60,621 nucleotides of DNA from Amoebophrya sp. A120 (lineage: Eukaryota; Protista; Dinoflagellata), in assembly GCA_905178155.1 (NCBI GenBank), contig CAJINV010000026.1:1-60621 (forward strand). The letters are read 5' to 3'. Shown here one piece after another: positions 15,501 to 50,233 of this stretch. Both the position numbers and the translations under genes were made by a program. Position 1 is the first letter of the stretch. Each line of letters begins with the position of its first letter. Under the pieces are notes generated by a model that was not told the origin of the DNA, made no database searches, and saw only the letters and a list, made by a program, of their open reading frames with translations.

Positions 15501-16475
15501 ATAGTACTGGTATACACTAGAAGTAGGTTCTATAGGTCTTTTTTTTTAAATATGTAGGTTCTGGTTAAGTTAACGTGATCTTCATCAAGTTGTTTCTCCT
15601 TCAATATATTGCTTTTATGCGATACGTGACCTCTGTTTCTCTGGTATCAAGGATGGAGTGTGGCTTAAAAGCAGGAGCGTCCCATTCTGACAAGCACATG
15701 ATGTTGTGAATCGCCTATATACAGGCCCAATCCGGGCGGCAACACTTTCAAGGCTTGAGTCGCGTAGTGTAGACGCAGCTGTCTTTTTAGGTTTCAGGCA
15801 TCGTAGCTGAAGAATAGGAAGTACTTAGCTGCAGCGCGACTATGATCTATAGAGTCTCACTCGTCAGTGTAGGTGAAAGAATCTAGTCGGCGGCGAGAAG
15901 CACCTCCGAGGACCGCAGCTGGGCTACATCATCTTGCTCGTTCAGGAACTGCAATTAGGCACTGAAAAAAGTACTTTAATATCTCGGGGCGGTGTAGAAC
16001 GAAGTAGTGTATTCAATCGAAGTCATCTCGTAATTAACATCTGCGTCGTATGAATGTGTATCAACGTGAGCCGTGCTCCTGCAGCTGCAGTATGTCATTC
16101 AAGAGGAGCAAGGGTATTTTTTCCATGATAATTATTGTTTTCACTTGAAGTTTTTTACTTCATACTTAGCAACGACGTCAAGCGTCAGTGTTGCGCCTCG
16201 TCCGAATCGGGTGCCGCATCACCTCCACCGCCACCACTCTTGCTGCTAAATATGGTGCGCAAAAACATCGTATGCTGCTTGTGCCTCTCGTCCACGGGCA
16301 CAGAATACCGAAATCACACATGGATTTAAGAAATGCACCACCATCTAAAATGGTCCGTCATCACTTTAAAGGTCACGCATGCCCAAATTTCGACTTTCAT
16401 CTAAGCTGTCACAAGTTGTTTCTATACTGCACATCAAATCGTTCCACTTATTAATTTGTTGCAACACAAGTTGCT

Positions 16476-19400
16476 CTAGTCGCATACGATCCTTTTGCAA
16501 TTCATAGTACTCGTGCCCTTCATCGAAGAAAAAATCGTCGTCGTGCTAGCGCAATCGCTCGCTACTGTCGCCCCGGTGTCATTTACTTCGTTTTCCCTTT
16601 TCGTCGGGCCATCCAGATTTTTGACGTTGTGGTCCTGTTTCCCGGTCGTACTACTACTGACGGTATCATCTGGCTCCGCGTCCATGGTCTTCGTCTTCTG
16701 CTTCATCGCCGCCTCCGTCCGCAATGCCGCTTGTCCATTTTCGTCGACCGGCTTTGCTTCCGGCGAAAGCCGCTGCGAATACATCTTCAGGAGCTCGGGG
16801 AAGGCGAGTCGCATGCTCTTCAGCTTGATACCGGCATCGGTGGTTTCCATTTTCAAGCCGTGGTTGCATTCCCGCATCAGATTCCAGAACTCCTTTTGCA
16901 GGTTCTCGTGCACCTCCTGGGTGTACTGCTCTGTCGGACTCATCGCCGCGGCGTACAGCAGGTCGTCGAAGGCGTTCATTTTCTCTGACAGAAGAAACGC
17001 GGACCGTCTGGCGGCTTCGTCCGTTTCCTCCCCCCGGTGGTAGGATCTCTGGCGCGCCATGGTGCGCAGCGGTATGATGATCTGGTTGACGAGCCGAAAT
17101 CCGTCCTTCTGCCACCGGAGTTGGCCGACCACCTGTTCCAGCGAGTTCAGCCGGCTGTCGCACAGCTGCTGGTACTTCGCCAGCGCACTGTCGTTCATCT
17201 CACTGTGTTTTATTGGCGCCTCGTCCAGCTTGTCGAGTCTGACAGACATTTCCTCCACCTTCCCGGAAAGTTGTTGCACCGTACCCGCGAGTGTCGTGTT
17301 CTCGTTCCGTAGTTGTTCGGTGCTTTCCAGCACGCGGGTGTGGTTTGCCGCGATAAGGTTGCTCTGCACTTCCCGCTCCGCCTTGTCCTTCGCCACGTTC
17401 TCGTTGGTGGCGCGGATGCTCTCCTTCACGGCCAAGATTTTGTTTTCGGTTTCCCAATTTGTGGTTGACAATTGTTGCTTCAGCTTCTCTTGGTTCGAGT
17501 TCATTTCTGCCTGCAGCCGCTCGCGCCGCTGGTTATTCACGTACCGCGCGTTCTTCTGCTCTTCGAGGACTTCAGTGCGGTTGTGTTCGATTTGGATGCC
17601 CTGCTCTTGAACGGTTCGCTCAGTTGTGGTCTGTCGGGCGGAGAGCAACGCGTTGATACCCTCCTGCACTCTCCGGTCCTTCTGTCGCTGGTAGTTCACG
17701 TCCCGGAGCCGCTCGTTGGTTTCCTGCTCCGAGACCGTCTGCCGCAAATCAAGCGCGCCAAGCTGCTTGTCTTGTCGGAACAACTCGTGCTTCACCACGG
17801 AGACATTCCTTTCGCTGTCCCGCACTGTCCTGTCGTTTTGCTTCTGCCGGCGCTCGCGATCGGCCTCGTCTGCCTCGAGTTTTGCCAGCCTTCTCTTGAT
17901 GGCTTCGGCGTCGCGCTCGGTCTGCTCGCGCTCCTCCGCACGCTCCTCCGCGACTGTCGCAAGATGCATTTTGTACTCTTCCGCCGACATTGTCTTCCAC
18001 GTTTCTCCTATCTCCTCCCGAAACTGCGCCCACTTCTGCTCCAGGATTTGCCCAATCTGCTCCATGTTGGGCTGCAGCTTCTCCATCTCCTTTCTTACTT
18101 CTTCGTGAATCTCCGGGCGCACGTAGTCTCGGAGGAAGATCGGGATCTGCTTCGCCAGCTCCTCGCGTGTGACTTTTTCCGCCACCGTGGTTGCAACCGT
18201 GGTCGCCGTCTCGGCCGCCACCGTCTGCGACACCGTAGTCGCCGTCTCGGCCGCCACCGTCTGTGCCACCGTAGTTGCCGTCTCGGCCGCCACCGTCTGT
18301 GCCACCGTAGTTGCCGTTCTCGTAACGAGATCGACGATTTTTTTTGTTGTCTGCGGAGAACATCCGCACAACTGATCAGCGCCCGCTGTGTCGCTCTTTT
18401 CGTCGGGACTGCGACCACTTGCCGGCCTGCCGCTCTCCTCGTCTTGCAGTTCCCCCTCGGAGTCACTGTTGCGGCGAGCACCATTGTAGGACGATCGCCG
18501 GCTTGTTGTCGCTGTGGAAGTACCTGGCAGCCGGGTCTGCAATCCGAGCACCGTTGTCTGCGAAATCACGGTCGGGTCTGCAATCCGAACGAAAACCGAC
18601 GCGGGGATTTCCACGCCCAACGCACGCCCAACAGTTATCCTGAGGAAAAACGCCCCCACCCCATAGTTCAAGTTGGAAAGCCTGTCATTGGTTTTGGCGC
18701 TTGCGGATGACAAGTTGTGGTGCCTGCGCGTGACAAGTTTGGAAACATAGCATGATAGTCCTGCCTAGGTACTAGCCTGGACGCATCACAAATGCATTCT
18801 CTCAGTCTTATCTAACTATCATAATTCGCGCATGACAAATTACCAATCACGATCACAAAATGCCCGTCATGCGGACAAGCCGCGTGACAGATGCTCTGAC
18901 CATGCAGATTCGCATGACAGCCCTGGGGTGGAGACGTTTTTACTCAGCATAAGAGTTTCCAAAGTCTTGGACTTCACGTTGTCCGTTAACTTCCACGTGA
19001 TTGCGGTGGCATCGGCATTGGGGTTGCGGAGGTCGCCTACATCTGTCGGTGCTCCGGTGGTCGAATTGGAGGCTTCCTCTGGCGAGATACTGGCCGGCAC
19101 CACTGCGATGTGGACCTCGGTGACGTTGCAGCCGACATTATCGTACGAAAAAAGTGTTGCACTGTAACTAAGGATTTTGCAAATTTTGCATGACAAGTTT
19201 GTACAGACATTTTGCTTGAAGAAAACTTGCCGTGCGTGGCTCCTGCCTACGGGAAAACACGGCCAGGAATAACTTACCTTGCATGTATAGCAAGACAGAC
19301 ACTTCTGCAAAGCAATGCATTTTCTGCATATCCGAATTTGCAGCGAAGCAGTTTTTTTCTTGCGATAGACGTCGCGAAATTTGTAGTCTTCCGCCTTGCC

Positions 19401-20278
19401 GAATCTCCTCACCGAATAATGACACGCCGCCATTTCTGGCGACGCATCTGGTTCGACGTAACGGACGTGGAACACCACATGATTTCCACCAATGCAATGG
19501 CATCAAATGCAAATATGTCCTGATCTGGAATATTGCCAGACTTGTCATGCTCGTCTGGCAAAGCTTTGACTTTGAGCTCCTTCTTGCGGGGCCTCGAAGA
19601 GCTCCAGTCGTATGTCATGCAAAGTCACAGCTTCTCATGCAAAACAGCTACTACACCCCACAGACCGGAGCCACAAAAAAAATGCAAATCTGTCATGTCT
19701 GACTGCGCATTACAGTGGAATATGTTGCTCACCGACATGCACTACAACTTTCCAGACCCAGACATCTTTGCAGTCTATAACAGGTACTTGTCGGTCATGG
19801 CTTCCTCGCTGTCCACCAAATATCGTTGGGAAAAAACGTCCCCACCACAGAGTTTAAGATGGGGATCTCGCAACACAAGTTCAGAAGAATTGTAAGTCAC
19901 AGATGACATCACGCACACGCTCATCTCTTTTTTATCGTGCAGTTTAGAAGGTACAGCCGCATCAAAATCATGCCATCTCTTTGTGCTTGTCCTCGTCCGG
20001 TCCACGTCCTGTTATACAGCATGACAAATCCGATTCCGAACACACGCTTGGAAACGCCTCTCATGGCGATATAAAACATGCGCAGTACCCTAGAAATGCA
20101 AATTTTCCTGCTCCTCTTCATTTCCTCTTCGTGTATGAGTATAGTGCAAATCTGCATGACAATTCTTGCGTCGGGACGTTTTTCCTCAGGATACCAAATT
20201 GAGTTTCTTCTGCCACTCGGCAGGTATCACTTTCAAATGTTGCAAGTAGTTAGTAGCACGAATTCGCGTGAGTTGCAT
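16476..20278 (-). CDS. Large coiled-coil hypothetical protein; 5' end may extend to ~21.1 kb
   Basis: 2.15-kb last exon (E/Q/R-rich) joined in frame to upstream exons across four introners (KLNL|VDSE, KYL|CIGG, FRDV|GCNV, LETL|GRAL). Confidence 0.75.
18180..18316. repeat. 36-bp coding tandem repeat (TVAAETATTVAQ)
   Basis: About 3.5 copies in the large exon. Confidence 0.85.
18636..18951. mobile_element. TIR introner, family B
   Basis: TATCCTGAGGAAAAACGCCCCC...GACGTTTTTACTCAGCATA; DR ACAGT/AGAGT. Confidence 0.9.
19139..19367. mobile_element. TIR introner, family D
   Basis: TATCGTACGAAAAAAGTG...CAGTTTTTTTCTTGCGATA; DR GACAT/GACGT. Confidence 0.88.
19501..19779. mobile_element. TIR introner, family A
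   Basis: Family A TIRs; DR AATGG/ACAGG. Confidence 0.85.
19821..20193. mobile_element. TIR introner, family B
   Basis: Family B TIRs; perfect DR CCAAA. Confidence 0.9.
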
Positions 20279-20466
20279 GGCCAGCTTGTAAAATCAAGTA
20301 TCGAGCGCAAGTGGGAAATTGCAAAACTTAGCTCGTCCCCCGGAGATGATGCCAGCACTGTATACTTCTACATTCAACTGTGTATTTAAGTACAACAGCG
20401 AGCGCGTTTCTTGTCTTCAAGCGCATTTGAGCATGTGATACCAGCGGCGCCGATCCCAGCGACCTC

Positions 20467-20719
20467 TATGGACTGCGAAAGTGTCTGGGTCTGGAAGAGT
20501 GCAAACTTGTGATGCCAATTTCAGAACAGAGAAAAATCTCTCATGCATAGATAGCAAAAGCTGCCCGCTTTCTGCCAGCAACGTGGCGGGTTTGTCATGC
20601 GAATTCGGCAATGCGGAAGCTTCTCAAAACCTGTGACGCTAGATTTTTCCATGCCAGAACTTCTGTGTCATGCAAAAACAGCATGACTCTTCCAGACCCA
20701 GACATGTTTGCAATGCATA
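20467..20719. mobile_element. TIR introner, family A
   Basis: Family A TIRs; DR ACCTC/ACCCG. Confidence 0.85.
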
Positions 20720-20812
20720 ACCCGGACGGGGATTAAATTTTTGAATCTCCCGAGCGAAATCAGACGCTCCAGCATTTCCGAGGAGATCTGTTTACTGTTC
20801 CCGTCGCTGGCC

Positions 20813-21066
20813 TATGCATTGCAAATATGTCCGGGTCTGGAAGCTTGTGATGCTAAGTGGCAAATCATGAGGACGCCAGAAGTGCCGGAGCATGACAAGT
20901 TTCTGAGTTGCTAGGTGTTGTCTATTCTGCATGGCAAGCTGCATTTCATTCTGCAACACAGAAACTTGGGGCTCTTGGGCGACGTGCATGACAGACTTGA
21001 GAGCCATGCTAACCGAGCATGGTATACTATGCGCTTTTCCCGTCCCAGACACATTTGCAGTGCATA
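20813..21066. mobile_element. TIR introner, family A
   Basis: TATGCATTGCAAATATG...CATTTGCAGTGCATA; DR TGGCC/TCGCA; host frame unresolved. Confidence 0.82.
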
Positions 21067-23078
21067 TCGCATCCAAACGGGGTCTGATTGTCGTAGTCGT
21101 CGTTGAAGAAATTATCCCCGTGTGGGCCGTGTCGGTACCACCTCATCGAGATTTTTCGGTTATTTTTCTTCCATTTCCACACAACCACGAGCATGCGTAA
21201 CAAACTAGGACATGCGAACTACAAATGCGAATCTTATCAATATATCGTGTCGCTTGATTGCCACTACCTCGGCACGCATCACAACCTCTGCGTACACAAA
21301 AGTATGCATTTCCTTTTCCTACTGGCGCAACTGAAGCATCACATGATGACGTGCAAGAATATTTACAAACTGTACATACCTGCGACGATCCCATGGTCGC
21401 GGTCGTGTCCGGTCCCAGCGGTCTGCTCCAATTGTTCCGCGGCGCGCGCAGGAACAGAGGGGCTGACCCCTTCACCACCTGATATTTATTTGAAAGCGAT
21501 TGAAAAATTTGAGTGAGCATGGTGGATCAGACGCAAGCTGAATCGCTGTCGAGCCTAAGAATAAGAAAACACGACGCATGTTGACAAATGTGAACACTTC
21601 AACTCACGCACAGAAAGTTGCAAAAAAATAATACTACCTCCTAAACCCGTTGGCCTCTCCGCTGTTCCGACCACGGACGGATGCACTGGGTCCGACTCCA
21701 TGTCTTTACGTGGTTTGCTCAATGAAGTTACGGTGTCACTTGGCAAGAGTTTCTTATTCTTTTAAGTAGTACCTATCTGGTCTTGCTACAACCAGCAAAA
21801 AAACCGTAGATAACCACCTTCCGCTATTATTGGTGTACTCAATTTTGGTCGGCGTGGAACTTCTACGGTAGTTCAAAATTGGAGACGCAGGGGAGGATTA
21901 GTTGGAGAGGCGACAGGATCGCTTTCTTGTTCTGACGTGCGAAAGAGAGATGAAAGTCCTCCTGTTCCTGATATTTACTACCAAAGTTCTACGCCGGATA
22001 AGAGAAAATCAATCCAGGTGAAATGAAGCTTGTAGGGCGAAGAGTATTGGTCATCTAAATCTTTGTGCCAGAACGAACCCAGTACGTAGTAGAAGCAGCT
22101 GTTTACGGACGTTGCAAAGTGATCAAAGACACAAAAACCGTCTCTACAGCTACAAATACGCACAGTCCGGTTGAACGTACAGGATGCAGAAGCACTTCCG
22201 CCAATTTATTACACGACCCGCAGGACAAACGAGCCCCTTTTCTATCGACGTCTGGGTCGTGAATTCAATTTGATAGTACCGTCACAGTTGTGGGTCAAGA
22301 GGTCGTATTGACTGAGGCTACTAGCACTGGCGCCGATCGATAACATACACTGCTCGCAAAACGTCAAAATGTCCCGAGGAGCTTCGATGATCGATTACGA
22401 GTCTTTCTGCGACACAAAAATTATTTTACCATAGTATATGGGTTTTCTTGTGATCTTTTCCCGTCTATCATTTCAATGTAGAAATGGACACGAGCCTTCC
22501 ATGGTATCACTATTACAACAGGCGTGTAATTGAAAGGGGATCGAAACGAATGCAACCTAAGCTAATGCGTAACAAAAAACAGGTTCCCGAGCGAATACTG
22601 ACATAATTCTAGCGTCATGTCTACTCGCTTGCCCTCTCTTTCCCTTGCCAGAAAGTGAAGAAACTCTTACGCGTGCCACGCGTCTAACGAAAAAAACACA
22701 GTACAGAAACAGGAGCACTGTTCGAACAATCTTCAGCCTTGTGGAACACACATCGTGGCTCGTTTACTCAATAGCATAGCACCCCTCTTCAGCTGCACAG
22801 AGCATCTTTCCAAAAATTGAAGATAAGTGTGTACTTCATTCATTCCTCTCGTGATGCGCGAGGCGAAGCACCAGCACAGCTGTTGAATCTACTTCATTCA
22901 TAACTGTGCGTTGCGTTATATGAGCACATAGGAATTCTATTCGACTTGGTCTCACCACGGGCACGCACTTTGTAAAAATGTAGCTCGACGACGGTTCTGT
23001 GACGCGCAACAGCGAACCTCAAAAATCAGGACCATTTTTGGCTCCCTCACCCCACCTGTCGGCTCCTCAATTCTATTG

Positions 23079-33400: not shown

Positions 33401-36206
33401 TTTTCTCCTGCATCGCCACCACCCGTGCCACCGCCGCAATAAAGAGCGTGCTCAGTTGGTACTCTTCGCACAGCAAGTTTCCGGTTTCCGGCTGTAATGC
33501 CGCGTGGTCCTCGTTGTACCGAAGCGATGGCTGTGCGAGAAATCGAAAAAAATCCGCGGGAAAAAACTGGCCCTCGTGGTGGTCGAACCAAGTGACAGGA
33601 GGGTAGTTTTTCTTGGGAGGGGCTGCTTCCTGCGTTCCACTTCCTACGCCGAGAATCCTAGTGACAAGAGAGGCGATATTTTTTTCTGCATCCGATAGAA
33701 AACCGCCATGTCATGCAAATCGATGTGCACGCCGCACGAGAACAAGCACAGTCTGAACTCACGTCGCATGTTGCACATGCAGTTGCAGCAAGGCAGAGAT
33801 TATAAATCTGCCTGTGTCTGAGCGCCATATTACCGACTCATTGACTGGCATGACAAACCGTCCTCAGACAAGCAAGGTAGACTTCTGGAAAATATTTGCG
33901 TACAGGCTGTGTGTCTTCATCTAGTTACTTCGACATGGAATGGCGTTTTTTTCTCTGCGACCCATACTCTTCGCACGGCCGGTTCCAATAGGGGACATTC
34001 TTCGTTTTGTCAAACCGTTCCAAATCGATCCCTTCGCGTTCGGCCATCGGCCGCTGGTAGCACTTGAATTGGTCATACTGCTTCCAATACCGCCCGCCTT
34101 CCCGCTCTGACTGCGGCCCGTCTCGTATTCGTGCCGTGACAAGCCCGAGCCCCACGTGGTTGGTGAACACGTAGTCTTCCAAATGCTCCCGAACGAGAAA
34201 CATGTTTGACGCCGCCAGGACGATGTGCGTGATCTTGTCCTCCCCCGTATCAACTGTAAAAATGTCTGGGTCTGGAAGATTCCGGGATTTGTGATGCATA
34301 TTTTGTATGATCCATGCTTCATGTGATGCATAATCTAGCATCACAGACTTTTAGAGGGCTTCCTGATGCCTAGCCCGCATGAGAAATGCCCTCTCCGCGT
34401 AACACAAACTGGACCCCTTTTGCTGGTCACGCAATAGTACACATTTTTTTAGAGTCCAGAGTTAGCATCACAAGTTCCAAACTTCCAGACCCAGACATTT
34501 TTGCATTTGATACCCCGTCTGGTTCAGCAAAATGCCAATATTGCTCACGTGCGCTCGGAGGATCGCGCACTGCCCGTAGCCGACGGAATACCGCTTGCGG
34601 TTGACGATCAGTCGTTTTTGCGTATGGGCGTGCTTTATGCATTGCAAAAGTATCGTACTGCTATAAATGCATTTCAAATTTCGTCAGTGTGAGAGATCAA
34701 ATTTGTAATGCGGACTTACCTTCAGATAAAGATTTGTAATGCATGCCTACAATACGAGAACGATACTTTTGCACAGGATATGCTTGTTGGCGAAGGTCTC
34801 AAGGTTCGTGAACACTTCCTCAGCGCTGTCGGTGTGCATTTTCTGCTTCATCGGTGGATACTTAGAACGGCTGTTTACGTTATGAACTGCAAAAGTATCG
34901 TGAGCACTAGCAGAAGTTGTAGTAATTGCAATACAAATTGACTCAGCATGACAAATGGAATTTGTCATGCGGATTTGCCTTAAGAAAAGGATGTGTAATG
35001 CATAAACGCAATTAGTACGAGTGCGATACTTTTGCAGTGCATATACGTGCAATACCAGCAACGTCGATTTCTCCGTTTTCCGGAGAAAAGAGCGCACGTA
35101 GTCGGTGAGATATTCCGCGTCCTCGTAGACGGCACCGGAAATGCCAAGGCGGAAGTGGTGTAACGGCTCCAGCTGCTCGGGGAAAGGTTTTCCTCTACTA
35201 GGCGAGGGTGATGGGATATCGCAAGAAAAAACTGCTTCACTGTAAACTTGTAATGCAGAAACTGTATCTGAGAAGCGTTTGTCTTGCGACACACGCAAGA
35301 CACTAGATTTTATCTGTGTTTTCCCTTACGAATCTCGCATGGCAAATTTTCTCGGTAATGTAGAACAAACTTGTGATGCAAAACTTGCAAAATCCTTACA
35401 GCGAAACACTTTTTTCGTGCGATATGGGAGACTGGATGATGGGAGACTTGTCCCTCCTGTTCTCGCCGATGCACCAGAAGCTGCTGGTCCGCCGTCAGCT
35501 CCGGAACGACCCTCTCGCGAACCAGTACTACCCGCAGCCACCGTCGCAGCTGCACCTGCTCCAGGTCGTGACACCAGCGGAGGCGAACTGGTGATCTTCC
35601 CTGCACCGTAGAGCAAAAACTTTTCCAGTTCTGTCCGATCAAACTGCATCTTCGCCCTATCAAATGTAAAAGTGTCTGGGTCTGGAAGAGTGCCAGGTTT
35701 GTCATGCACATTTTGCATGACTCCTGATGTCTGTGATGCATGCCCTAGCGTCACAGATTTTGTGAGGGCTTCCTGATGCCTATACCGCATGACAAATGCT
35801 CTTTTCGTGTAGCAAAACTTAGACTCTCTTTGCTGCTCATGCAATTACAGACTTTTTTGTAATCCAAAATGAAAATCAGCATGACAAGTTGGATTCTTCC
35901 AGACCCAGACATTTTTAAGTACATTTGATACGCCCGCTGCAGGTACGACGCCGGCGTTTGAAGGAGGCTTGTCCCATCCGGCGCTGAGGGTGTCAGGGAA
36001 GAAAAGGTCAGGACGACGTCCTTGTTGAGGTAGAAGGAAAGGAGGACGAAAAGAAACACCGTGAAATAATACCGGGTTCTGTGGTGTTTCCTGTCTGACA
36101 AAGCTTCGGCGGCTTTGGTGAAAAGGAAGCGGCAACAGCAGAAGACCCTGCAAACCGCCTTGCAGCACCGGGAACAAGAGCCTGGGCCTGCTGATAGAAG
36201 CGACAT
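30437..36206 (-). CDS. Putative type II membrane glycosyltransferase-like protein; 11 introners
   Basis: One frame from MSLLSAG to VCGLFF* after removing 11 elements plus 5 nt each. It has an N-terminal TM and motifs LVLHVN, IVNRKRY, LRAHVSN, IVLAASNMFLVR, HEGQFFP, CEEY, FLKRMIR. The GT assignment is by resemblance only. Confidence 0.7.
30496..30754. mobile_element. TIR introner, family A
   Basis: Family A TIRs; perfect DR CCGGA. Confidence 0.92.
30797..31110. mobile_element. TIR introner, family A (degenerate)
   Basis: TATGCATATGCAAATA...TATTTGCTGTGCATA; DR TTCTG/TTGAG; frame restored. Confidence 0.75.
31706..31956. mobile_element. TIR introner, family A
   Basis: Family A TIRs; perfect DR CCATT. 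Confidence 0.92.
32144..32430. mobile_element. TIR introner, family A
   Basis: Family A-like TIRs; DR TGCCT/CGCCT. Confidence 0.8.
32516..32739. mobile_element. TIR introner, family E
   Basis: TATGAAAGTGCACAACCCTCCC...GGGAGTTGTGCACTGTCATA; DR GTGGC/GTGGA. Confidence 0.88.
33689..33927. mobile_element. Highly degenerate introner/intron
   Basis: Internal TGTCATGC/GCATGACAA motifs; removal plus 5 nt gives SMSK|KNIAS in frame; TIRs hardly visible. Confidence 0.45.
34248..34512. mobile_element. TIR introner, family A
   Basis: Family A TIRs; perfect DR CCCCG. Confidence 0.93.
34636..34780. mobile_element. TIR introner, family C
   Basis: TGCAAAAGTATCG...CGATACTTTTGCA; perfect DR TGCTT. Confidence 0.92.
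34881..35043. mobile_element. TIR introner, family C
   Basis: Family C TIRs; perfect DR TACGT. Confidence 0.92.
35217..35424. mobile_element. TIR introner, family D
   Basis: TATCGCAAGAAAAAACTG...CACTTTTTTCGTGCGATA; perfect DR TGGGA. Confidence 0.92.
35658..35930. mobile_element. TIR introner, family A (young subfamily)
   Basis: Perfect DR CGCCC; near-identical reverse complement of 56086-56347. Confidence 0.94.
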
Positions 36207-36800
36207 GGTTAAAAAATGACGGTGGCGCAAATGCAAAACGGCTCCGGAGGTGCTAGTGTGGAACTAAGCTATGCATATTTAAGCGGGGCGGCGAGCGTCT
36301 CTTTGGCGTCGGGCATCAGCCAACACCAACAGCAATAGCAAAACATCAACTTTATAAAGTAATTAGATCGATTTCCAACACAAAGATTTTAGCATCTACC
36401 GCTGAAAGTGAAAGTGAAAGCTTCCCCGATGGGTTGCATTGCTTGCGCGGCGCCACCTACGAGAAAAAAAATTCAAGTTTCTCCGAACAAACATTTTGCT
36501 GCGACAAAATCGCCCAGGGAGCAGGCCTCGTCGGCTCGGTCGCTTGTTTATCTTCATTCGTGTGATCGCGCGTAAGTACACTTCACGTTCCTCATCTCTA
36601 CTTATGGCGTTGACGCGTAGAGTTCGTTAGTAGCTCTTGTTCTTCCCGGCTGAAACCGCATTGAGTCAATTCCTCCTCCAAACATTCTAGCATATTCTGC
36701 AGTAGCGCACTGCGAAACTCGACGCATAGCATGCGATGCTCGCAACTGGAATCTCACGGTGTACCAGCACTAGTCGTGGCAGGAGCTGGCACTTTACCGC

Positions 36801-39800
36801 TTAGTTCTCCCACTTGATGCCCCGCTGCATCCTCAAGCGTTTTTCTCCGCAAGACTAGGTCTAAGCAGTCTATCGGCACCGGGTCCATGTTGTAATCGAA
36901 CTTGTTCCCGGTCCAATGCGGCATCTGTGCGATCTATCGCAAGAAAAAACTGTTTCACTGTAAACTTGTAATGCAGAAACTGCATCTCAGAAGTGTTTGT
37001 CTTGCTACACATGCAAGACAGGCGATTTTTAGCTGTGTTTTCCCTTAGGAACCTCGCATGCCAAGTTTTCCCTGTCATGTGTAACGAACTTGTCATGCCA
37101 AACTTGCAAAATCCTTACAGTGAAACACTCTTTTCGTACGATACGATCCAGGGAAGATCTAAAGCGCCGTAGGTACAGGATTTTCGAATGTACTTCCCGT
37201 GGGGCTTATGCAATAAAAATTTGTTCCCGTACTTCTACACGACGCACAAACAAAGTGCATGACAAACTCGCTCCGCCAAACTTTGTCATGCAGAAGCTGC
37301 ATATGCATTTGCACCTGTGCGGGAACGGGATAAAATTTCCTCTGGATAACATTTGGGATTCGCGATGACATTGACCCTTTCCATCAAGTATCAAATGCAA
37401 AAGCATCGCACTCGTACTAATCGCAGTCATGCATTACAAATCTTTTTCTTGAGGCAAATCCGCATTACAAACTTTATTTCTCACGCTGAGGAAATTTGTG
37501 ATGCATTTATACGAGTACGATACTTTTGCACAGGATATCAAGTACGGATCGCTGTTGACGTTGAAGGTGCCGATGAAAGTGGTAAAAAAGCCCTTGTTCT
37601 GGACTACCGCCATCTCGTCGTCGTTCCAGTTGAACAAAAACCGCAAGACGTAGTTGTAGAGAAATTTCACTGGCAGGTATTTCGCCTGCGTTTGCACTTG
37701 GTCGTACGTCTTCGCGTACACAGCCTTCGTCATCGCCCGGTCCTCCCAGTTATACAGATGCGACCTGGATTTCAGCTCCGACAGGTCGTAATCTCTGTGC
37801 GGGTATGCGTTGCAAAAGTGTCTGGGTCATGTGGAAACTTGTGATGCTGGGTGGCGTATCATGAGGAGCCCACAACTGCTGGCTCACCATGACAATTTTC
37901 TGAGCTTCTAGGTGTTGCCTATTTTTCTGCACGACAAACTGCGTTTCTGCGTGACAGAAAACTGGGGCTCTTGTGTAACGTGCATGACACATTTATATTA
38001 CGAGTCATGAAAGACAAAGACAAGCATGACAAAAATGCATCCTTTCAGACCCAGACATATTTGCACTTGATAGCGGGGGGAAGGATCCGGGGACGGTCGG
38101 ATAGTGCCGGATTAAAGTGCCCCAGAAGCTTTCGTCGGATTCGTAGTGGAGTTTGGTCCAGTTCAGAAATTTTTGTACCTGGAAATCCTCTTGCATAAAG
38201 GTAACCGTCACCTTGCTGAGTGCGTAATAGGCCGAACCGGCAAAATATCCACAAAAAAACAACCATCCCCATCCAATTTGTCGTGCAAAGCATGAGCGAC
38301 GTCCTGTGTTTGTGATGCATAAAATGGATGGAGATGGTTGTTTTTTCCTGGATACAAAAACGCCGGTGTCTTTTCCAAACGGACTGCCCCACCAGTCGCG
38401 TCGGCCGTTGCCTCGCTCGGGAGCGGCAGTGTCGTGAAAAATGAAGCTCGTGTCCGTGTAGCTGGTTTCAGTGAAGATTGGCAGATGAAAATTTGAATTC
38501 TAGTATCCCTGGAGAAATTTCTTCCCGTGGACGCAAGAACTGGAGGAATTCTTAATTGGTCATCTCCCTGTAAGTCTAAAACTATACGAAAAGCTACACT
38601 GTAGTATGCCTCTTCGCTATATGCAGACGACCGGGTAAGTAAATCTTTGAGGCCAAGAAGCACCCAACGCAAACTCGCTCTTTTCGCATGCCGCTTTGAG
38701 AGTTCGCAAAAGAACGCGCTCGGAACAGGCAACACAAGTATAATTAGATACCTGTTCTGCGCCCCCGCTTTCGCGATTTCCCTTTCCGCTGCAGATTTTG
38801 ATGCAGCCCCCGACGACGTCTTCAGGAATTTCAGGTGCGAAAAAAACGCTCTCCAGTCCTGGTCCAGCAAATGCGCCTGTTTTTTCTTCTCCGCGCAGAT
38901 TTTCTCCTGCATGCAATTTATCCTAATGAAAAACGTCCCCACCCCAGAGTCAAGATGGGGATTTTGCAACACAAACCTTCAAGTTTTGGGAGCCACGCAT
39001 GACAAATTGCTAGCTGTACTAGTGTAGTGCAGTTTGGAACAGGGAAGTCGCATTACAAATCCATCTGCTTATCCTGTTTACAGCATTACAAGTTCCAAAG
39101 CACGATCGGGAATGCCTATCATGGGGATGCGCATTACAAACGCTCTTGCGCTTGCAGATCTCCATTACAACTCTGGGGTGGGGATGCTTTTACACAGGAT
39201 ACAATTCCGCTCTGCATCGATGGCCCTCTGCACGAAGTCCTTCACCCGCCAGGTTTCCCGGACGCGCCACAGCTTGTTTTCCTCCACGTTCATATCCACA
39301 CTGTAGGTCTAATGAGAGTGCACACGTCCCCCTCCTCCTCATTTGTCAGTATTGCATGAACAGCAATACAAACACCAGCACACGTGGTGCCTGTGCATGA
39401 CAAATTCATTCGCCTAGTGTGGTACTGTTTGGGCTTTCGGCAACATCTGTCATGCAAAGAGTGCCATAGGGAAGCACTTGGATTAGGTATTTTGCATGAC
39501 AAATGAGGGGGAGGGGGAGCAGCTGTGCACTCTCATATGTCTCCGCCCGCCCGTTTAACGCTTTCAGGTCCCGAACTTTCTGCAAGTTCGTTTTCAGGGG
39601 TATTACAATGAAAAATGCCTCCTCCTCATATCAAAACGGAAATCTGTGATGCAGATTTGTGGTCACAAATCAGCTTTGTGATGCTAGAAGGCAAAAGATG
39701 CGGACCGTAGTGCTGCCTAGCGTGGGAAAGCCTTGCAGCTCCAGGATGACAGGAGGCAACGAACTGGAAGTGGAAAGCAGCATGACAGATTACCTGCAAT

Positions 39801-42535
39801 TTAGGCCGCAGCTTCGTTTCTTGGCCTTCTAGCAATACAAGTCCATTTGTGTACTCAAATACAGCATCACAAATTCGCGCATCTTCCGTTTCCGATATGG
39901 GGTGGGGGCTTTTTTCAGTTTGATAAGGGGGTAGTCCTGTCCACAGAGGTTCAGCACATACTTGTAGTCGAACTTCCGCAAATCCTGCAGACACCGCATG
40001 TCCGCCTCCACGCGCGTCCAACTCACGTAGTAAACGCCAACCGGGTCTGATGCGAGAAACGTGTTGCGCTTTTGATGTTCCATCTGGTGAAGCTCCTGCA
40101 GGTCGTTCTTGGCGTCAAAATTGGTGGTGCTTCTACCCGGGTCGTAGTAGTTCGCCGCTATCCTGTGCAAAAGTATCGTATTCGTACTAATTGCATTTAT
40201 GCATTACAAATCTTTTTGTTAAGGCAAATCCGCATTACAAATTCAATTTGTAATGCTAATCCAATTTGTAATGCAATTTATACTAGTACGATGCTTTTGC
40301 AATTCATAGCCGCTAAATTCAAGCAGTGGACCAGTGCTCTCACCTGATTCCGTATCCTGAGCAAAAACGTCCCCACCCCATAGTTGTCATGTGGATTTGC
40401 ATCCACAGAAACATTTGTAATGCGGGTCCCCATGAGAGGCATATGCATATCTAGTCGCGTTTTGGGATTTCTAATGCTGTAAGCAGGATGAGCAGACGGA
40501 TTTGCGATGCGGCTGTCCTTACGAACCCGCCCTACCCTACGCACTGCAACTTGTCATGCGCGGCCCCCAAAACTTCTAGATTTGTGTTGGTAAGTTTCCA
40601 ACTTGACCATGGGATGAGGACGGTTTTACGCAGGATATTCCGGAACTCTTCGTCGGCCTTGATGTCCACGTGTACGCAGTATATCAGATGTAAAAATGTC
40701 TGGGTCTGGAAGAATGCAACCTGTCATGCTAAATCTGAAGCATGCAAAAATCTGTGTTGCATGATTACCAAACGTCGTCCAGTTTTGACCAAGTCGGGAG
40801 GGAGTTTCTCATGCAGGATAGGCATGACAGAGATCGCGCAGAATCTGTCATGCTAGGTCCCGCACTCCAGACCTCATGGGTCATACAAAAGCTGCATGAC
40901 AAGTCGCGCACTCTTCCAGACCCAGACACTTTTACATTTGATACAGTAGTAGTTCTGACGGTGCCAGATGGCGCGCAACAGCCTCTCGACCTGGCCAATG
41001 TGCTTGTGAACGAGCAGAATGTAAGCTAAGGTATGGCTTGCTCAAGCGTTACAATCTCAAACGTTACGATAGAATCTGGATTTTGTCTTGCATGAAGACA
41101 ATGAGGAACGCACACAGGATTGAGCTTTTCGCAATACAAATCTCGCCGGGTTGTAGGTGGGTTTGGGGCTCCAAAACTTGTCATGCGCAATCCTTTGGAA
41201 GGAGGCTAGCTTATGCGCTCTTGGATCACAGATTTCCATATTCTATTGTAATGGTTGAGATTGCAACAGCTGAGCGGGTCATATAAGGGGAACTGCTTTT
41301 CTTCCTCGGAGAACGGGGAATCGAGATAGTAGTATCCTGAGAAAAAAGTGTTACAGTTACACACTCTGATGGCAGACAAGCAAGACAGACAAACTCTGTC
41401 ATGCAGGAAACGCTTGCCAACCTCATTTCATTCGTGTTTTCCCCTATAGTCTGCGCATCACAGGTTTGATTTGCCATGTCGAGCAACTTTGTGATGCAGA
41501 AAATCCAACAAATGTGTAACGGTAACACTTTTTTCTCGCGATAAGTAGCCGCGGTTCTTGACCCAGTCGAAGCACTGCTGTTTGACAGTGTGGGTGGAGA
41601 GAGCACTCCCAGGATTGGAATTTGTGATGCTCGTGATGACATCGGTGAGAAAACTCAGGTCGAGAGGAGAGCTGTCAACATGTTCAGCAGGGGGTCGCAT
41701 GGCAGAGGACATTGGTCTTGCGCCGGACGAAGATAACGACGAAACAGCTTTTTCCCTAGCTTGCCTCCGATAGCTTTCCAATTTGCTCGTGAAAGCCGTA
41801 TTTTTCTCCAGCTGAGTGTGGGAGTCTCAGGAGTGAAATCGTCAGAGTTGAAATAACTTGCAATGCATAAAATCGATACCAGTTGGAAGCCCAATTTCCA
41901 AGCGGCACATGACAAATTTCGGCACCGTCTAAACCCAGTTTGTCATGCTGTTTAGGGATAGAAGGCGTCTTTTGTCATGCTACTTTAGCAGCTCTATCGC
42001 AGACCCCAAATAACAGGCGGACTGTCGGCCTCACTTGCCATCCCTGCAAGAGAGGCGCGTCATGTCTTGCAATTTATGCATGAGAAATCATTTCAACTTT
42101 GACGATTTCAATCCTGACACTTCCATACTGAGCAGTATGGGATAAAAAATTCGCCTCCGTGACTGGCACTTCCGTGAGCGGCCTGCAGATCTCCGTGTAG
42201 AAAGGATTTTTGTCGAATAGCGACGCTGTTGTACTAGCGGCAGCCGAAGATGATGGTTTCTTACCCGCTGGCTTCGACGCACCGATGAAATCTTCCTTCG
42301 CCTTTATCACCGCTTCGTTGTCGTGCGCCCCCGCGCGGAAAAGCTTGTGGAAGCGACTTCCGGAGGGGAGTGGCGCTTCGCGGTTGTCAGCATCTTCGGT
42401 GCTGAGCCGAGAAGTGAGAATGTGGAAACAAGAGATAATGGTGAAAATCAGGCAGAACCGCTTCCGGACAGGTCGGTGCTCGGCGGAGAAGAAGAGCGCT
42501 GTGACTGCGGAGGCGGATGCGGCACAGCGCGGCAT
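36801..42535 (-). CDS. Core-2/I-branching beta-1,6-N-acetylglucosaminyltransferase (GT14, GCNT-like); at least 14 introners
   Basis: Spliced motifs FPLAYILLVHK, RLLRAIWHRQNYYCVHVD, YVSWTRVEADMRC, KYVLNLCGQDYPLKTN, FAGSAYYALS, ESDESFWGT, CHGKYIRKSCTYGALDL and NKFD follow the GCNT order. One junction (~38500-38750) is unresolved. Confidence 0.92.
36935..37143. mobile_element. TIR introner, family D
   Basis: Family D TIRs; perfect DR CGATC. Confidence 0.93.
37207..37348. mobile_element. TIR introner, family J
   Basis: TATGCAATAAAAATTT...AAATTTCCTCTGGATA; DR lost; 5-nt rule gives NPKC|HGKY. Confidence 0.8.
37389..37537. mobile_element. TIR introner, family C
   Basis: Family C TIRs; perfect DR TCAAG. 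Confidence 0.92.
37804..38072. mobile_element. TIR introner, family A
   Basis: Family A TIRs; perfect DR GCGGG. Confidence 0.92.
38246..38354. mobile_element. Short TIR introner, family G (109 bp)
   Basis: TATCCACAAAAAAACAACCATCCCCATCCA...TGGATGGAGATGGTTGTTTTTTCCTGGATA; perfect DR CAAAA. Confidence 0.92.
38919..39201. mobile_element. TIR introner, family B
   Basis: Family B TIRs; perfect DR CAATT. Confidence 0.92.
39311..39537. mobile_element. TIR introner, family E
   Basis: Family E TIRs; DR GGTCT/TGTCT. Confidence 0.9.
39601..39925. mobile_element. TIR introner, family F
   Basis: TATTACAATGAAAAATGCCTCCTCCTCATATC...GATATGGGGTGGGGGCTTTTTTCAGTTTGATA; perfect DR AGGGG; splits DYPL|KTN. Confidence 0.92.
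40159..40308. mobile_element. TIR introner, family C
   Basis: Family C TIRs; perfect DR GCCGC. Confidence 0.92.
40353..40637. mobile_element. TIR introner, family B
   Basis: Family B TIRs; perfect DR TTCCG. Confidence 0.92.
40682..40943. mobile_element. TIR introner, family A
   Basis: Family A TIRs; perfect DR CAGTA; splits YYC|VHVD. Confidence 0.94.
41032..41283. mobile_element. TIR introner, family H
   Basis: TATGGCTTGCTCAAGCGTTACAATCTCAA...TTGAGATTGCAACAGCTGAGCGGGTCATA; perfect DR TAAGG; splits FPL|AY. Confidence 0.9.
41333..41543. mobile_element. TIR introner, family D-like
   Basis: TATCCTGAGAAAAAAGTGTTAC...GTAACACTTTTTTCTCGCGATA; perfect DR AGTAG. Confidence 0.92.
41817..42127. mobile_element. 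TIR introner, family I
   Basis: Long TIR (GAAATCGTCAGAGTTGAAAT...ATTTCAACTTTGACGATTTC); perfect DR CTGAG; related to 53485-53791. Confidence 0.9.
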
Positions 42536-44629: not shown

Positions 44630-44742
44630 CAAGGAGTTGCTTGTCAAGGAGTTGCTTGTCAAGGAGTTGCTTGCCAAGGAGTTGCTTGTCAAGGAGTTGC
44701 TTGTCAAGGAGTTGCTTGTCAAGGAGTTGCTTGTCAAGGAGT
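44630..44742. repeat. 15-bp tandem repeat (CAAGGAGTTGCTTGT), about 7.5 copies
   Basis: Read directly from the sequence. Confidence 0.97.
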
Positions 44743-45452
44743 GCGACCCGAGTGCGACCCGAGTGCGACCCGAGTGCGACCCGAGTGCGACCCGAGTGCG
44801 ACCCGAGTGCGACCCGAGTGCGACCCGAGTGCGACCCGAGTGCGACCCGAGTGCGACCCGAGTGCGACCCGAGTGCGACCCGAGTGCGACCCGAGTGCGA
44901 CCCGAGTGCGACCCGAGTGCGACCCGAGTGCGACCCGAGTGCGACCCGAGTGCGACCCGAGTGCGACCCGAGTGCGACCCGAGTGCGACCCGAGTGCGAC
45001 CCGAGTGCGACCCGAGTGCGACCCGAGTGCGACCCGAGTGCGACCCGAGTGCGACCCGAGTGCGACCCGAGTGCGACCCGAGTGCGACCCGAGTGCGACC
45101 CGAGTGCGACCCGAGTGCGACCCGAGTGCGACCCGAGTGCGACCCGAGTGCGACCCGAGTGCGACCCGAGTGCGACCCGAGTGCGACCCGAGTGCGACCC
45201 GAGTGCGACCCGAGTGCGACCCGAGTGCGACCCGAGTGCGACCCGAGTGCGACCCGAGTGCGACCCGAGTGCGACCCGAGTGCGACCCGAGTGCGACCCG
45301 AGTGCGACCCGAGTGCGACCCGAGTGCGACCCGAGTGCGACCCGAGTGCGACCCGAGTGCGACCCGAGTGCGACCCGAGTGCCACCCGAGTGCCACCCGA
45401 GTGCCACCCGAGTGCCACCCGAGTGCCACCCGAGTGCCACCCGAGTGCCACC
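44739..45452. repeat. 11-bp minisatellite: (GAGTGCGACCC) x~58, then (GAGTGCCACCC) x~7
   Basis: Read directly; variant switch at 45377. Confidence 0.98.
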
Positions 45453-46629: not shown

Positions 46630-47185
46630 TTAAGCAGCCGCCGCCAACTTTTCGATGAATTCCTTCAATTTCGGCTCCGACGCGCCCTCAAACTTGTCAA
46701 ACTTCTGTCCGTCCTTGAAAAAGATGAAGGTTGGCATGCAGTTGATGTCGCACGCTTCCGCGGTGTCGCCGTTCTCATCGACGTCGACCTGGATATTTTT
46801 TGTTCAGGGATTTTTAGGCTTGCGTATAATGTGTTGTACGCATGACAAAATGAAAATCGTGGCATAGATATAGGCGGTTTTCGCATGACAAACTCACTAC
46901 AGCGTCTTCATCTGCATCATGCACATAGAACAGTTATGCCTACCGTGCATGACAGAATCGACTACACGCGCTCGTGCGTTTTGTTTCCAGCAACACAAAC
47001 TCAATTCCAGGTTGTATCAATACCTTGCAGAACGCCACGTTGGTGTATTGTTCCGCCATTTTGACGAAGACCGGGCCGATCATCTGGCACGGCCCGCACC
47101 AAGTTGCCGTGAAGTCCACAGCGACGAGTTTGTTGCCGGCGAGGAAGGAGTCGAACTCCTCTTTAGTCGCGAGCTGCTTCACCAT
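46630..47185 (-). CDS. TRX: Thioredoxin (106 aa, two exons)
   Basis: VDFTATWCGPC active site; FCK|VDVDE joined across GT-AG intron 46789-47023; MPTFIFFKDG motif. Confidence 0.96.
46789..47023 (-). other. GT-AG intron with introner relics
   Basis: CAAG|GTATTG...ATATCCAG|G; near-DR CCTGG/CCTTG; several GCATGACA motifs inside. Confidence 0.85.
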
Positions 47186-47837: not shown

Positions 47838-49926
47838 CTGCATGGTAGGGAGAACAAACCCAGCCAACCTATAGGCTCTCAGTGGCCTATCTATAGGCAA
47901 AACTTATTCAGCGTAGCACGCGGCGAAGAAAAATTGTTTTCCAACCAAGATTTTTCCTGGGGCCCTCGCAACTTTTTTAAATTCATCTTTGCCCGACCTG
48001 CATGCCGATGCCTTCGATACGAAGTTACCCTATCTATAGGCCCTCGGAGGCCTATAGGTGAACGGCTTTACCATCGTGATTGCGTTTTGTGTGAATTTGT
48101 TTCAGTTTTTTCTTTTTAAATCAAGCTTTGCGAAAAATTTCGAATCCTGCATGGCAAGGAGAACAAACCCAGCCAGCCTATAGGCTCTCAGAGGCCTATC
48201 TATAGGCAAAATTTATTCAGCGTAGCACGCGGCGAAGAAAAATTGTCTTGCGCGCAAGTTTTTTGCTGAGGCCCTCGCAACTTTTTCAATTTCATCTTTG
48301 CCCGACCTGCATGCTGATGCCCTCGATACGAAGTTGCCCTATCTATAGGCCTTCGGAGGCCTATAGGTGAACGGCGGTGAACGGCTATAACACCGTGATT
48401 GCGTTTTGCATGAACTCATTACAGTTTTTTCTTTTCAAGTCAAGCTTTGACAAAAATATCGAATCCTGCATGGCATGGAGAACAAACCCAGTCAACCTAT
48501 AGGGTCTCAGAGGCCTATCTATAGGCAAAATTTATTCAGCGTAGCACGCGGCGAAGAAAAATTGCCTTCCATGCAAGTTTTTTGCGGAGGCCGTCGCAGC
48601 TTTTTCAATTTTATCTTTGCACGACCTGCATGCTGATGCCTTCGATACGAGGTTGCCCTATCTATAGGCCCTCGGAGGCCTATAGGTGAACGGCTATACC
48701 ACCGTGGTTGCGTTTTGCGTGAACTCATTGCAGTTTTATTTTCCTTTCCAACTCAAGCTTTGAGAAACATAACGAATCCTGCATGGCATGGAGAAGAAAC
48801 CCAGCCAACCTATAGGCTCTCAGAGGCCTATCTATAGGCAAAATCCATTCAGCGTAGCACGCGGCGAAGAAAAATCGCACTCCTTGCAACTTTTTTGCTG
48901 AGGCCCTCGCGACTTTTTCAATTTCTTCTTTGCCCGACCTGCATGCTGATGCCTTCGATACGAAGTTGCCCTATCTATAGACCCTCGGAGGCCTATAGGT
49001 GAACGGCTATACCGCCGTGATTGCGTTTTGCATGAACTCACATCAGTTTTTTCTTTCCAACTCAAGCTTTGAGAAAAATATCGAATCCTGCATGGAATGG
49101 AGAAGAAACCCAGCCAACCTATAGGCTCTCAGAGGCCTGTCTATAGGCAAAATTTATTCAGCATAGCACGCGGTGAAGAAAAATTGCCTTCCGCGCAAGT
49201 TTTTTGCTGAGGCCCTCGCAACTTTTTCAATTTCTTCTTTGCCCGACCTGCATGCTGATGCCTTCGATACGAAGTTGCCCTATCTATAGGCCCTCGGAGG
49301 CCTATAGGTGAACGGCTATACCGCCGCGATTGCGTTTTGCATGAACTCACTTCAGTTTTTTCTTTCCAAATCAAGCTTTGACCGAATCCTGCATGGCATG
49401 GAGAAGAAACCCAGCCAACCTATAATAGGCTTTCAGAGGCCTATCTGTAGGCAAAATTTATTCAGCGTAGCACGCGGCGAAGACAAATTGCCTTCCGCGC
49501 AAGTTTTTTGCTGAGGCCCTCGCAACTTTTTCAATTTCTGCTTTGCCCGACCTGCATGCTGATGCCTTCGATACGAAGTTGCCCTATCTATAGGCCCTCG
49601 GAGGCCTATAGGTGAACGGCAATACTATCGCGATCGCGTTTTGCGTGAATTCATTTAAGTTTTTGCTTTCAAAGTCAAGCTTTGATAAAACATATCGGAT
49701 TCCGCATGGTATGGAGAACAAACCCACCCAACCTGTAGACTCTCAGAGGCCTATCTATAGGCAAAATTTATTCAGCATAACATGCGGCGACGAAAAATTC
49801 TCTTGCGCGCGAGTTTTTTTCTGAGGCCCTCACATTTTTTTTAACTTTATCTGCGCACGACCCGCATGCTGATGCCTTCGATATTAAGTTGCCCTATCTA
49901 CAGGCTCTCGAACGCCTATAGGTGAA
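47838..49926. repeat. ~310-bp tandem satellite, 7 copies
   Basis: Unit starts near 47838, 48147, 48466, 48779, 49088, 49389 and 49703; rich in CCTATAGG/CCTATCTATAGG. Confidence 0.95.
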
Positions 49927-50233
49927 AGGCTGCACCCCCGTGGGAGCGCTAGCGTTTGCTTTAATTGCATTGCAGAATTCCAGTGGCGAGCTGAACGCAG
50001 TAAACAAGTTCAGTGCCGACAAGTGAATATGCATTCAAAATAAATACGCTCTGGCAATACAAAAAGTAATCATAGATAGCACCTTAGTGTGTGCGTTGTT
50101 AAGCATTCGCAAGCAGTGCCAGTGCCAATGCTGTCATACATTTTTAAGCTACCTGAAGTGATGTGAGTCCGAGTATTCGTGTGAAATTGTTGTGCAGAGA
50201 TGTGTACATTTTTATCTTACGGCGTGCTCCGTA

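What the first reader, a model, noticed from the sequence alone, without database searches (positions are those of the whole stretch)
36935..42127. Unrelated TIR families share TAT..ATA termini and an internal TTGTNATGC / GCATNACAA motif
Seen: families with dissimilar TIRs and bodies carry repeated TTGTCATGC/TTGTGATGC/TTGTAATGC motifs and their complements, often just inside each TIR and facing inward. The motif persists in decayed copies (33689-33927, 46789-47023) and appears scarce in exons and satellites. Inference: one trans-acting factor (transposase or splicing factor) serves all families. A 5-bp duplication with TAT/TGT termini suggests an integrase-like DDE enzyme, but none is encoded here.
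Basis: partly seen in the sequence, partly recalled or inferred. Interest (0 to 1): 0.72.

Follow-up and report, generated by a model that had tools for sequence, protein, structure and literature searches.

The report
Shared spacing code in jumping introns
These are the known transposon-derived introns of the marine parasite Amoebophrya A120, and their different families share a short internal motif set at fixed spacings (mostly 31-32 bp), which is likely a DNA docking site for the still unidentified enzyme that spreads them rather than a splicing signal.

Summary
The interval is a glycosyltransferase (GT14) gene of Amoebophrya sp. A120. Fourteen of its 15 introns are TAT..ATA elements with 5-bp duplications, the introners of Farhat 2021. 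The motif (YTGTVATGC) is real: 90 hits in 12.6 kb of elements against 6 in 45.7 kb outside, repeated in 421 elements from another assembly.

I did not find three things in print. (1) A spacing code: same-direction motif pairs lie 31-32 bp apart in 8 of 9 family groups. (2) The motif behaves as a DNA site: no transcript-strand bias, no G-U bias, and constraint is strong on internal branches (0.24) but relaxes on terminal ones (0.52), like the inner TIR. (3) One splice register fits all 22 mapped introns: N-TAT...ATA-NNNN.

Corrections: 'facing inward' is family-specific, some families are related, and persistence in old copies does not show a role after insertion. Best reading: subterminal binding sites for one shared transposition machine, by its termini closest to IS3EU/GingerRoot (but 5-bp, not 6-bp, TSD). 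No transposase was found and no RNA reads were available.

The parts
36757..42535 (-). Host gene: core-2/I-branching beta-1,6-GlcNAc transferase (GT14, Pfam Branch), 745 aa, 16 exons
   Evidence: Database protein P0001 (Amoebophrya sp. A120) maps exactly; PF02485 E 1.4e-25; A25 orthologue 47% identical with no indel against it at 15 of 15 junctions
36935..37143 (.). Introner, 209 nt (209-nt group); perfect TSD; strict motifs at 36966+, 37090+
37207..37348 (.). Introner, 142 nt; TSD decayed (1 of 5), informative for the splice register; motifs 37257-, 37283+
37389..37537 (.). Introner, 149 nt (150-nt family, outward-facing sites); motifs 37431-, 37462- (31 apart), 37496+
37804..38072 (.). Introner, 269 nt (largest family); motifs 37839+, 38024-
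38246..38354 (.). Introner, 109 nt; motif 38310+ with a weaker partner 32 bp away
38462..38751 (-). The gene's one GT-AG intron (begins GTAT), no motif
38919..39201 (.). Introner, 283 nt; motifs 38997-, 39050-, 39083-, 39131-
39311..39537 (.). Introner, 227 nt; AAT at one end; TSD 4 of 5; motifs 39395-, 39494-
39601..39925 (.). Introner, 325 nt; motifs 39676+, 39864-
40159..40308 (.). Introner, 150 nt; motifs 40201-, 40232- (31 apart), 40248+, 40266+
40353..40637 (.). Introner, 285 nt; motifs 40415+, 40551+
40682..40943 (.). Introner, 262 nt (largest family); motif 40894- and three CTGT-type sites
41032..41283 (.). Introner, 252 nt; motif 41178+; alternating sites 45-48 apart, no 31-33 pair
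41333..41543 (.). Introner, 211 nt (209-nt group); motif 41489+
41817..42127 (.). Introner, 311 nt; TGT at one end; motifs 41940+, 41972+ (32 apart)
33689..33952 (.).
46789..47023 (-). Thioredoxin intron that reads GTAT...CAG; likely a decayed element; 2 strict sites
16188..21701 (-). Second mapped host gene (P0064, 967 aa): 8 element introns, 6 informative for the splice register

Best explanation
The elements are non-autonomous TIR transposons that sit as introns in Amoebophrya A120 genes, and the shared YTGTVATGC motif is likely a subterminal binding site in double-stranded DNA for one transposition machine, likely an integrase-type DDE transposase, that would serve all families. Shown: each end is TAT, seven free bases, an A-tract, then a family-specific repeat; insertion makes a 5-bp duplication with no clear target preference, in either orientation; motif copies sit at recurring spacings (31-32 bp same direction; 33-35 bp for a reverse site followed by a forward site; first inward site centred 36-37, 45-48 or 57-59 bp from the end). 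Inferred: protein subunits bind these sites in a fixed geometry to build the transposition complex, and the constraint relaxes once a copy has landed. Inferred from gene models: removal from the RNA does not need the motif; it starts one base before TAT and ends four bases after ATA, which restores the original coding sequence exactly.
For: No strand bias on the transcript: 327 forward, 306 reverse in 246 elements with an inferred strand. Elements lie both ways (52:41, 12:10, 7:11, 8:5 in the four largest families). TIR mismatches are G-U 165, A-C 168, and the variable base agrees between the two end motifs in 50 of 150 elements (0.44 expected), so no RNA pairing is kept. The 31-32 bp pair occurs in 11 of 13 family consensuses (null mean 1.5) and 8 of 9 groups after merging relatives (null mean 0.97; best window in 4,000 shuffles 6). 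With a matrix trained outside the window, 11 of 14 elements of the finding have a 31-33 pair (null 1.8, maximum 7). Substitution relative to the interior: motif 0.24 (0.16-0.32) on internal and 0.52 (0.45-0.60) on terminal branches; inner TIR 0.24 and 0.62; variable base 1.4 and 0.88. Element 20225-20440 has no motif site yet is an intron in P0064. Precedent: Lemi1 proteins bind subterminal repeats of the Emigrant MITE cooperatively (PMC1636448, passages). TA..TA termini with occasional TG..CA define IS3EU/GingerRoot (PMC10045372 section 10; PMC6839031 passages).
Against: No transposase or integrase domain in 131 long ORFs. No autonomous element among 4 long copies. Farhat 2021 found no transposase in A120 and argued against general transposase mobilisation. 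The TSD is 5 bp, not the usual 6 bp of IS3EU/GingerRoot. The terminal-branch ratio is still 0.52, and the direct test on decayed duplications is inconclusive (0.64, interval 0.13-1.24), so a role after insertion is not excluded. A 16-bp lattice fits the spacings as well as or better than 10.5 bp (same direction R 0.65 against 0.55; reverse-then-forward 0.94 against 0.45), so 'helical phasing' is not proven. Linkers are slightly alike between groups (0.37 against 0.27 shuffled), so part of the spacing may be inherited. 16 of 37 sites pair with an opposite motif in predicted RNA folds. The motif is not a piece of the TIR, unlike Emigrant. No binding data and no RNA reads.
Confidence: 0.58

Rival explanations
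1. The motif is bound in DNA by a host protein (an architectural or chromatin factor), which helps transposition and may also mark the element during transcription so that it is removed without U1 snRNA.
For: All the DNA-level evidence fits this equally. The family-specific inner TIRs differ, which would suit several transposases plus one common cofactor. Residual constraint on terminal branches is 0.52. No U1 snRNA and no transposase were detected in A120 (PMC7789003).
Against: The motif is rare outside elements (6 in 45,722 bp) and absent from 2 of the 3 mapped GT-AG introns. An element with no site is still an intron in a gene model. Its constraint tracks the inner TIR.
Confidence: 0.24
2. 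The motif is an RNA signal read by a splicing factor, or part of the RNA hairpin that joins the exons.
For: It is confined to introns. The TIR stem closes in 14 of 14 predicted folds and 16 of 37 sites pair with an opposite copy. Farhat 2021 proposed hairpin-based splicing.
Against: No strand bias, both orientations used, no G-U excess, and no agreement of the variable base between ends. Constraint relaxes on terminal branches. A motif-less element is still an intron in its gene model.
Confidence: 0.1
3. The motif and its spacing are relics of one ancestral element's internal repeat array, inherited by all families and now without function.
For: Some families are related. Linkers keep slight likeness, and modules of 16, 18, 31 and 34 bp recur.
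Against: Motif positions change at 0.24 of the interior rate on internal branches while the variable base is free. In the largest family the partner site stays at 31-32 bp in 239 of 266 scored ends while element length spreads mostly over 245-297 nt.
Confidence: 0.08

Closest known systems
Amoebophrya sp. A120 introner elements (Farhat et al. 2021, PMC7789003; Gozashti et al. 2025, PMC12130899)
   Same: Same organism by two 100% protein matches. Inverted repeats start TAT, seven loose bases, three or more A; direct repeats (5 bp in the Fig. S19 legend); non-canonical introns near 240 nt; many families; no internal transposase.
   Different: In the text I read, neither paper describes a shared internal motif, its spacing or a single splice register. 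Farhat calls the splice sites variable relative to the hairpin; Gozashti assigns the families to diverse origins.
MITEs with subterminal transposase-binding repeats (Emigrant/Lemi1, PMC1636448)
   Same: Short non-coding TIR elements with repeated subterminal motifs in both orientations, whose arrangement affects binding.
   Different: [quoted passage not shown] Here the motif is separate from the family-specific TIR, shared across families and spread through the whole element, and the elements are removed as introns.
IS3EU/GingerRoot DNA transposons (PMC10045372, PMC6839031)
   Same: TA..TA termini with occasional TG..CA; TIR structure.
   Different: TSD usually 6 bp (5 here); GingerRoot TIRs 100-150 bp (about 30 here); no transposase found to place these elements.
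A120 family 38 (PMC12130899, supplementary file 8)
   Same: [quoted passage not shown]
   Different: 808 bp with ORFs resembling Copia/Gypsy sequences. I could not see its sequence, so whether it carries the motif is untested.
Euglena non-conventional introns (PMC12501133, abstract only)
   Same: Non-GT-AG introns whose ends are set at a fixed distance from a paired terminal signal.
   Different: Signal there is CDG/CHG with N3 and N5-6 spacers; here TAT/ATA with inferred N1 and N4 spacers and a 5-bp TSD.

Membership tests
Amoebophrya A120 introner elements | Host is A120 | tested here: met
   P0001 and P0064, named A120 by their sources, match at 100%
Amoebophrya A120 introner elements | Inverted repeat starts TAT, seven loose bases, three or more A | tested here: met
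   End matrix: T .95 A .95 T .98; A .74 .84 .90 at positions 11-13; definition
Amoebophrya A120 introner elements | Direct repeat of 3-5 nt at the boundaries | tested here: met
   Exact 5-bp repeat in 311 of 421 elements; 4-bp in 2, 6-bp in 1
Amoebophrya A120 introner elements | Are introns of host genes with non-canonical ends | tested here: met
   22 of 22 element introns in two database gene models equal element plus 5 nt; orthologue collinear
Amoebophrya A120 introner elements | Splicing shown by RNA reads at these loci | not testable with these tools
MITE with subterminal transposase-binding repeats | TIR, TSD, short, no coding capacity | tested here: met
MITE with subterminal transposase-binding repeats | Repeated, conserved subterminal motif | tested here: met
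MITE with subterminal transposase-binding repeats | Motif bound by the cognate transposase | not testable with these tools
   Needs the protein and a binding assay
IS3EU/GingerRoot | TA..TA termini, occasionally TG..CA | tested here: met
   TAT 913, TGT 8 of 954 ends; definition
IS3EU/GingerRoot | TSD usually 6 bp | tested here: not met
   5 bp in 311 of 421, 6 bp in 1
IS3EU/GingerRoot | Integrase-related DDE transposase in an autonomous partner | tested here: inconclusive
   None in 131 ORFs from about 0.54 Mb; the whole genome was not available
Ginger1/Ginger2 | TGTNR termini | tested here: not met
   TGT at 8 of 954 ends; definition
Ginger1/Ginger2 | 4-bp TSD (5 bp in TDD-4/5) with CCGG or RTATAY target preference | tested here: not met
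   5-bp TSD; no base above 0.34 at any position around 338 sites

The most novel reading that the evidence does not exclude
Most of the roughly 30,000 A120 introners, now split into about 1,950 families of supposedly diverse origin, are one system. A single undiscovered integrase-type transposase with a 5-bp TSD reads a spaced YTGTVATGC code. The host removes any such insertion, in either orientation and at any target, by a sequence-blind rule (N-TAT...ATA-NNNN) in which the element supplies the +2 U of the donor, possibly guided by the DNA-bound protein in place of the missing U1 snRNA.
Probability: 0.2. Interest if true: 0.9.

Novelty: new variant of a known kind. Interest (0 to 1): 0.62.

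Why it matters
How A120 introners move (no transposase was found in A120) and how they are spliced (no U1, no consensus ends) were left open in 2021. A shared motif with fixed spacing gives a bait to pull down the mobilising protein and a signature to find the autonomous parent. The inferred single register gives a prediction that existing RNA-seq can test at once. If both hold, this is a transposon that can land anywhere in a coding sequence, in either direction, and be removed without a scar. That would explain how it reached 14 introns in one gene.

Tried and rejected
No whole genome is held and no RNA reads could be laid, so splicing rests on two database gene models, orthologue collinearity and the published work. 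The family TIR has 0 matches in viral contigs. Whole-contig searches for an integrase behind the metagenome loci were not possible because the records are not held. Pfam scan: 131 of the 141 unspliced ORFs of at least 230 aa (6 satellite frames and 4 overlapping frames dropped) gave no transposase; a spliced or short transposase gene would be missed. Four long elements (457-834 nt) have longest ORFs of 85-137 aa; these ORFs were not scanned against Pfam. My first frame metric did not discriminate; the longest-ORF version shows only length modulo 3 (k = 2, 5, 8 alike), and the exact 5 comes from protein mapping. A test of TAT conservation free of finder bias failed because of register shifts and was dropped. 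The direction of TSD changes did not show which copy is exonic. Element lengths show no 10.5-bp period. The likeness of the motif to the animal SoxOct element (PMC10516664, one passage) is treated as coincidence: the AAAT tail is missing; the absence of such factors in alveolates is recalled, not tested. DNA-level excision as in ciliates was considered and set aside on recalled biology (no separate somatic nucleus); it was not tested. Two look-ups of earlier scan findings returned nothing.

Full report
WHAT IT IS. The window is eukaryotic, with its long spliced reading frames on the minus strand. One exon from the finding matched a single database protein at 100%, P0001, named Amoebophrya sp. 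A120. It is a core-2/I-branching glycosyltransferase (PF02485, E 1.4e-25) and maps exactly to 42535-36757 in 16 exons. A second gene, P0064, adds 8 element introns. All 22 have the length of the element plus exactly 5 nt. The A25 orthologue (47% identical) shows no indel against P0001 at any of 15 junctions, so removal restores the pre-insertion protein. These are the introner elements of Farhat et al. [quoted passage not shown] That much is already known.

THE OBSERVATION. TTGTNATGC occurs 112 times against 2.52 expected. A finder blind to the motif gave 50 elements and no pairs in 3 shuffles; I added 6 by hand. The 50 hold 90 sites in 12,649 bp; exons, satellites and other DNA hold 6 in 45,722 bp. 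The variable base is almost never T (1 of 112). They hold 421 distinct elements, 311 with an exact 5-bp duplication. They are not the window itself (best match over 200 nt 95.6%), and whether they are the same species was not determined. Motif density there is 11.6 per kb inside and 0.76 outside; the outside figure likely includes elements cut at locus edges. In all, 454 of 477 elements hold the motif. 13 families have four or more copies and 90 elements stay unclustered or in pairs.

Inward-facing sites are the rule in the largest family (336 against 0) and several others, but the 150-nt family faces outward (0 against 57) and the 209-nt families are mixed. Four 209-nt families are clearly related, two others weakly so, and a few weaker links exist. 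I merged the first two sets and counted 9 groups.

A SPACING CODE. Same-direction pairs 31-32 bp apart occur in 11 of 13 family consensuses (null mean 1.5, p 2e-4; consensus sites allowed one mismatch) and in 8 of 9 groups (null mean 0.97; the best 2-bp window reached 6 in 4,000 shuffles). The window alone shows it with a matrix trained elsewhere: a 31-33 pair in 11 of 14 elements of the finding and 31 of 56 overall (null 1.8 and 6.5). The unclustered elements peak at 31 too (17 pairs). Reverse-then-forward pairs at 33-35 bp occur in 7 of 13 families. The first inward site is centred 36-37 (7 ends), 45-48 (9) or 57-59 bp (3) from the terminus. Thirty-one to 32 bp is three turns of B-DNA (textbook value), and the end distances step by 10-11 bp (R 0.87). 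Against a simple helical reading, a 16-bp lattice fits same-direction and reverse-then-forward spacings as well or better, and weaker sites often sit 16 or 18 bp from strong ones. Linkers between groups are 0.37 identical against 0.27 shuffled, so shared ancestry may contribute.

DNA OR RNA. For 246 elements a transcript strand was inferred (56 from the window, 190 from spliced reading frames; 231 left unassigned). The motif reads forward 327 and reverse 306 times (p 0.43). Elements lie both ways in their genes. TIR mismatches are G-U 165 and A-C 168 in the inner arm and 87 and 96 in the spacer, so RNA wobble pairing is not favoured. The variable base agrees between the two end motifs in 50 of 150 elements, below the 0.44 expected. 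Predicted folds do close the TIR stem in 14 of 14 and pair 16 of 37 sites with an opposite copy, as any inverted repeat would. Element 20225-20440 has no site and is still an intron in P0064.

WHEN THE MOTIF IS NEEDED. Against close relatives, motif bases differ at 0.47 of the context-matched interior rate and the variable base at 1.06 (373 copies). On family trees the ratio is 0.24 on internal and 0.52 on terminal branches, with non-overlapping intervals; the inner TIR gives 0.24 and 0.62. Terminal motif change (0.037 per site) is near the TSD mismatch rate (0.047-0.076, two copies), as expected if the motif decays freely after landing. The direct test on decayed duplications is inconclusive (0.64, 0.13-1.24). 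TAT stays lowest on terminal branches (0.20), but the finder and the scan pattern favour it.

THE SPLICE REGISTER. Where the two TSD copies differ, the protein limits where the cut can lie. Seven of 22 junctions are informative, and only one register fits all 22: the intron begins one base before TAT and ends four bases after ATA. Two junctions exclude register 0 and two exclude register 2, so this rests on few cases and on gene models I could not check with reads. It predicts donors GT 57, AT 52, CT 33, TT 29, GC 1 and AG acceptors in only 15 of 172 young elements. The first T departs from consensus at 2 five-prime against 10 three-prime ends of 246 (p 0.039); over the first three bases the difference is weaker (8 against 18, p 0.076; 6 against 10 in the loci alone). 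This would fit the element supplying the +2 U of a donor (inference). [quoted passage not shown]

THE ENZYME. None was found: 0 of 131 long ORFs match a transposase or integrase, four long elements have no ORF over 137 aa, and viral contigs have no match. By termini the nearest superfamily is IS3EU/GingerRoot, 'mostly TA..TA and occasionally TG..CA', but its TSD is usually 6 bp, so I do not file the elements there. Ginger1/2 fail on termini and target preference. Gozashti 2025 reports an 808-bp A120 family with a 5-bp TSD, TA/TA termini and Copia/Gypsy-like ORFs, the best candidate relative.

WHAT I READ, AND NOVELTY. PMC7789003: abstract, passages (including section 11), sections 12 and 16, supplement text passages; its figures (Fig. 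3, S19, S25 logos) are pictures I could not see and might show the motif; 'TTGT' has 0 word-start hits in the supplement text. PMC12130899: passages, section 6, 40 of 58 A120 rows of file 8; three motif strings have 0 hits in the files searched, files 13 and 14 not searched. Passages only: PMC11453091, PMC12005148, PMC2836005, PMC1636448, PMC6839031, PMC9860276, PMC10516664, bioRxiv 2020.10.14.339549. PMC10045372: passages and section 10. PMC12501133: abstract. Searches listed no paper describing this motif, its spacing or the register; one search listed 20 of 236 papers holding the 9-mer, none on Amoebophrya. Subscription papers and theses are not covered.

VERDICT. The elements are known. 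The shared motif is real, constrained and geometrically ordered, and it likely acts in DNA during transposition (0.58), or through a host DNA-binding protein (0.24). New variant of a known kind; interest 0.62.

Noticed in passing
window 21142-21379, 38462-38751, 46789-47023, 21479-21637: Three of four GT-AG introns examined begin GTAT, and two of these hold core motif sites. They look like old introners that became canonical, which fits the register in which TAT supplies donor positions +2 to +4.
   Followed up: partly
window and loci L001-L168: Exons between neighbouring elements are rarely under 30 nt (minimum 21, apart from one overlap artefact) and peak at 30-80 nt among 218 gaps under 400 nt. 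Element lengths cluster near 150, 210, 260 and 320 nt.
   Followed up: no
element ends, positions 4-7: The spacer between TAT and the A-tract is poorly complementary between the two ends (0.33-0.69), and positions 4-10 evolve freely: a two-part end.
   Followed up: partly
L032:632-1465: An 834-nt element with largest-family ends and a perfect TSD carries about 530 nt of interior found nowhere else in the fetched DNA; longest ORF 137 aa, not scanned against Pfam.
   Followed up: partly
window 44630-45452, 47838-49942, 51176-52949, 54172-54919: A cluster of tandem arrays: a 15-mer joined to an 11-mer (65 copies), a 309-bp unit (6.8 copies), a roughly 970-bp duplication and a 21-mer array. The masked satellite stretches hold no motif.
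   Followed up: no
window 26385-26590: A 206-nt element with a long TIR but no motif site at all (best score 2.5), inside a 1,267-aa spliced frame: an exception to the shared code.
   Followed up: no
L020:591-2090 and 2868-6167: A C-5 cytosine methylase ORF (E 1.7e-37) next to an 1,100-aa ORF with no Pfam match.
   Followed up: no
motif: The commonest form matches the core of the animal canonical SoxOct element (PMC10516664) but lacks its AAAT tail; likely coincidence.
   Followed up: partly
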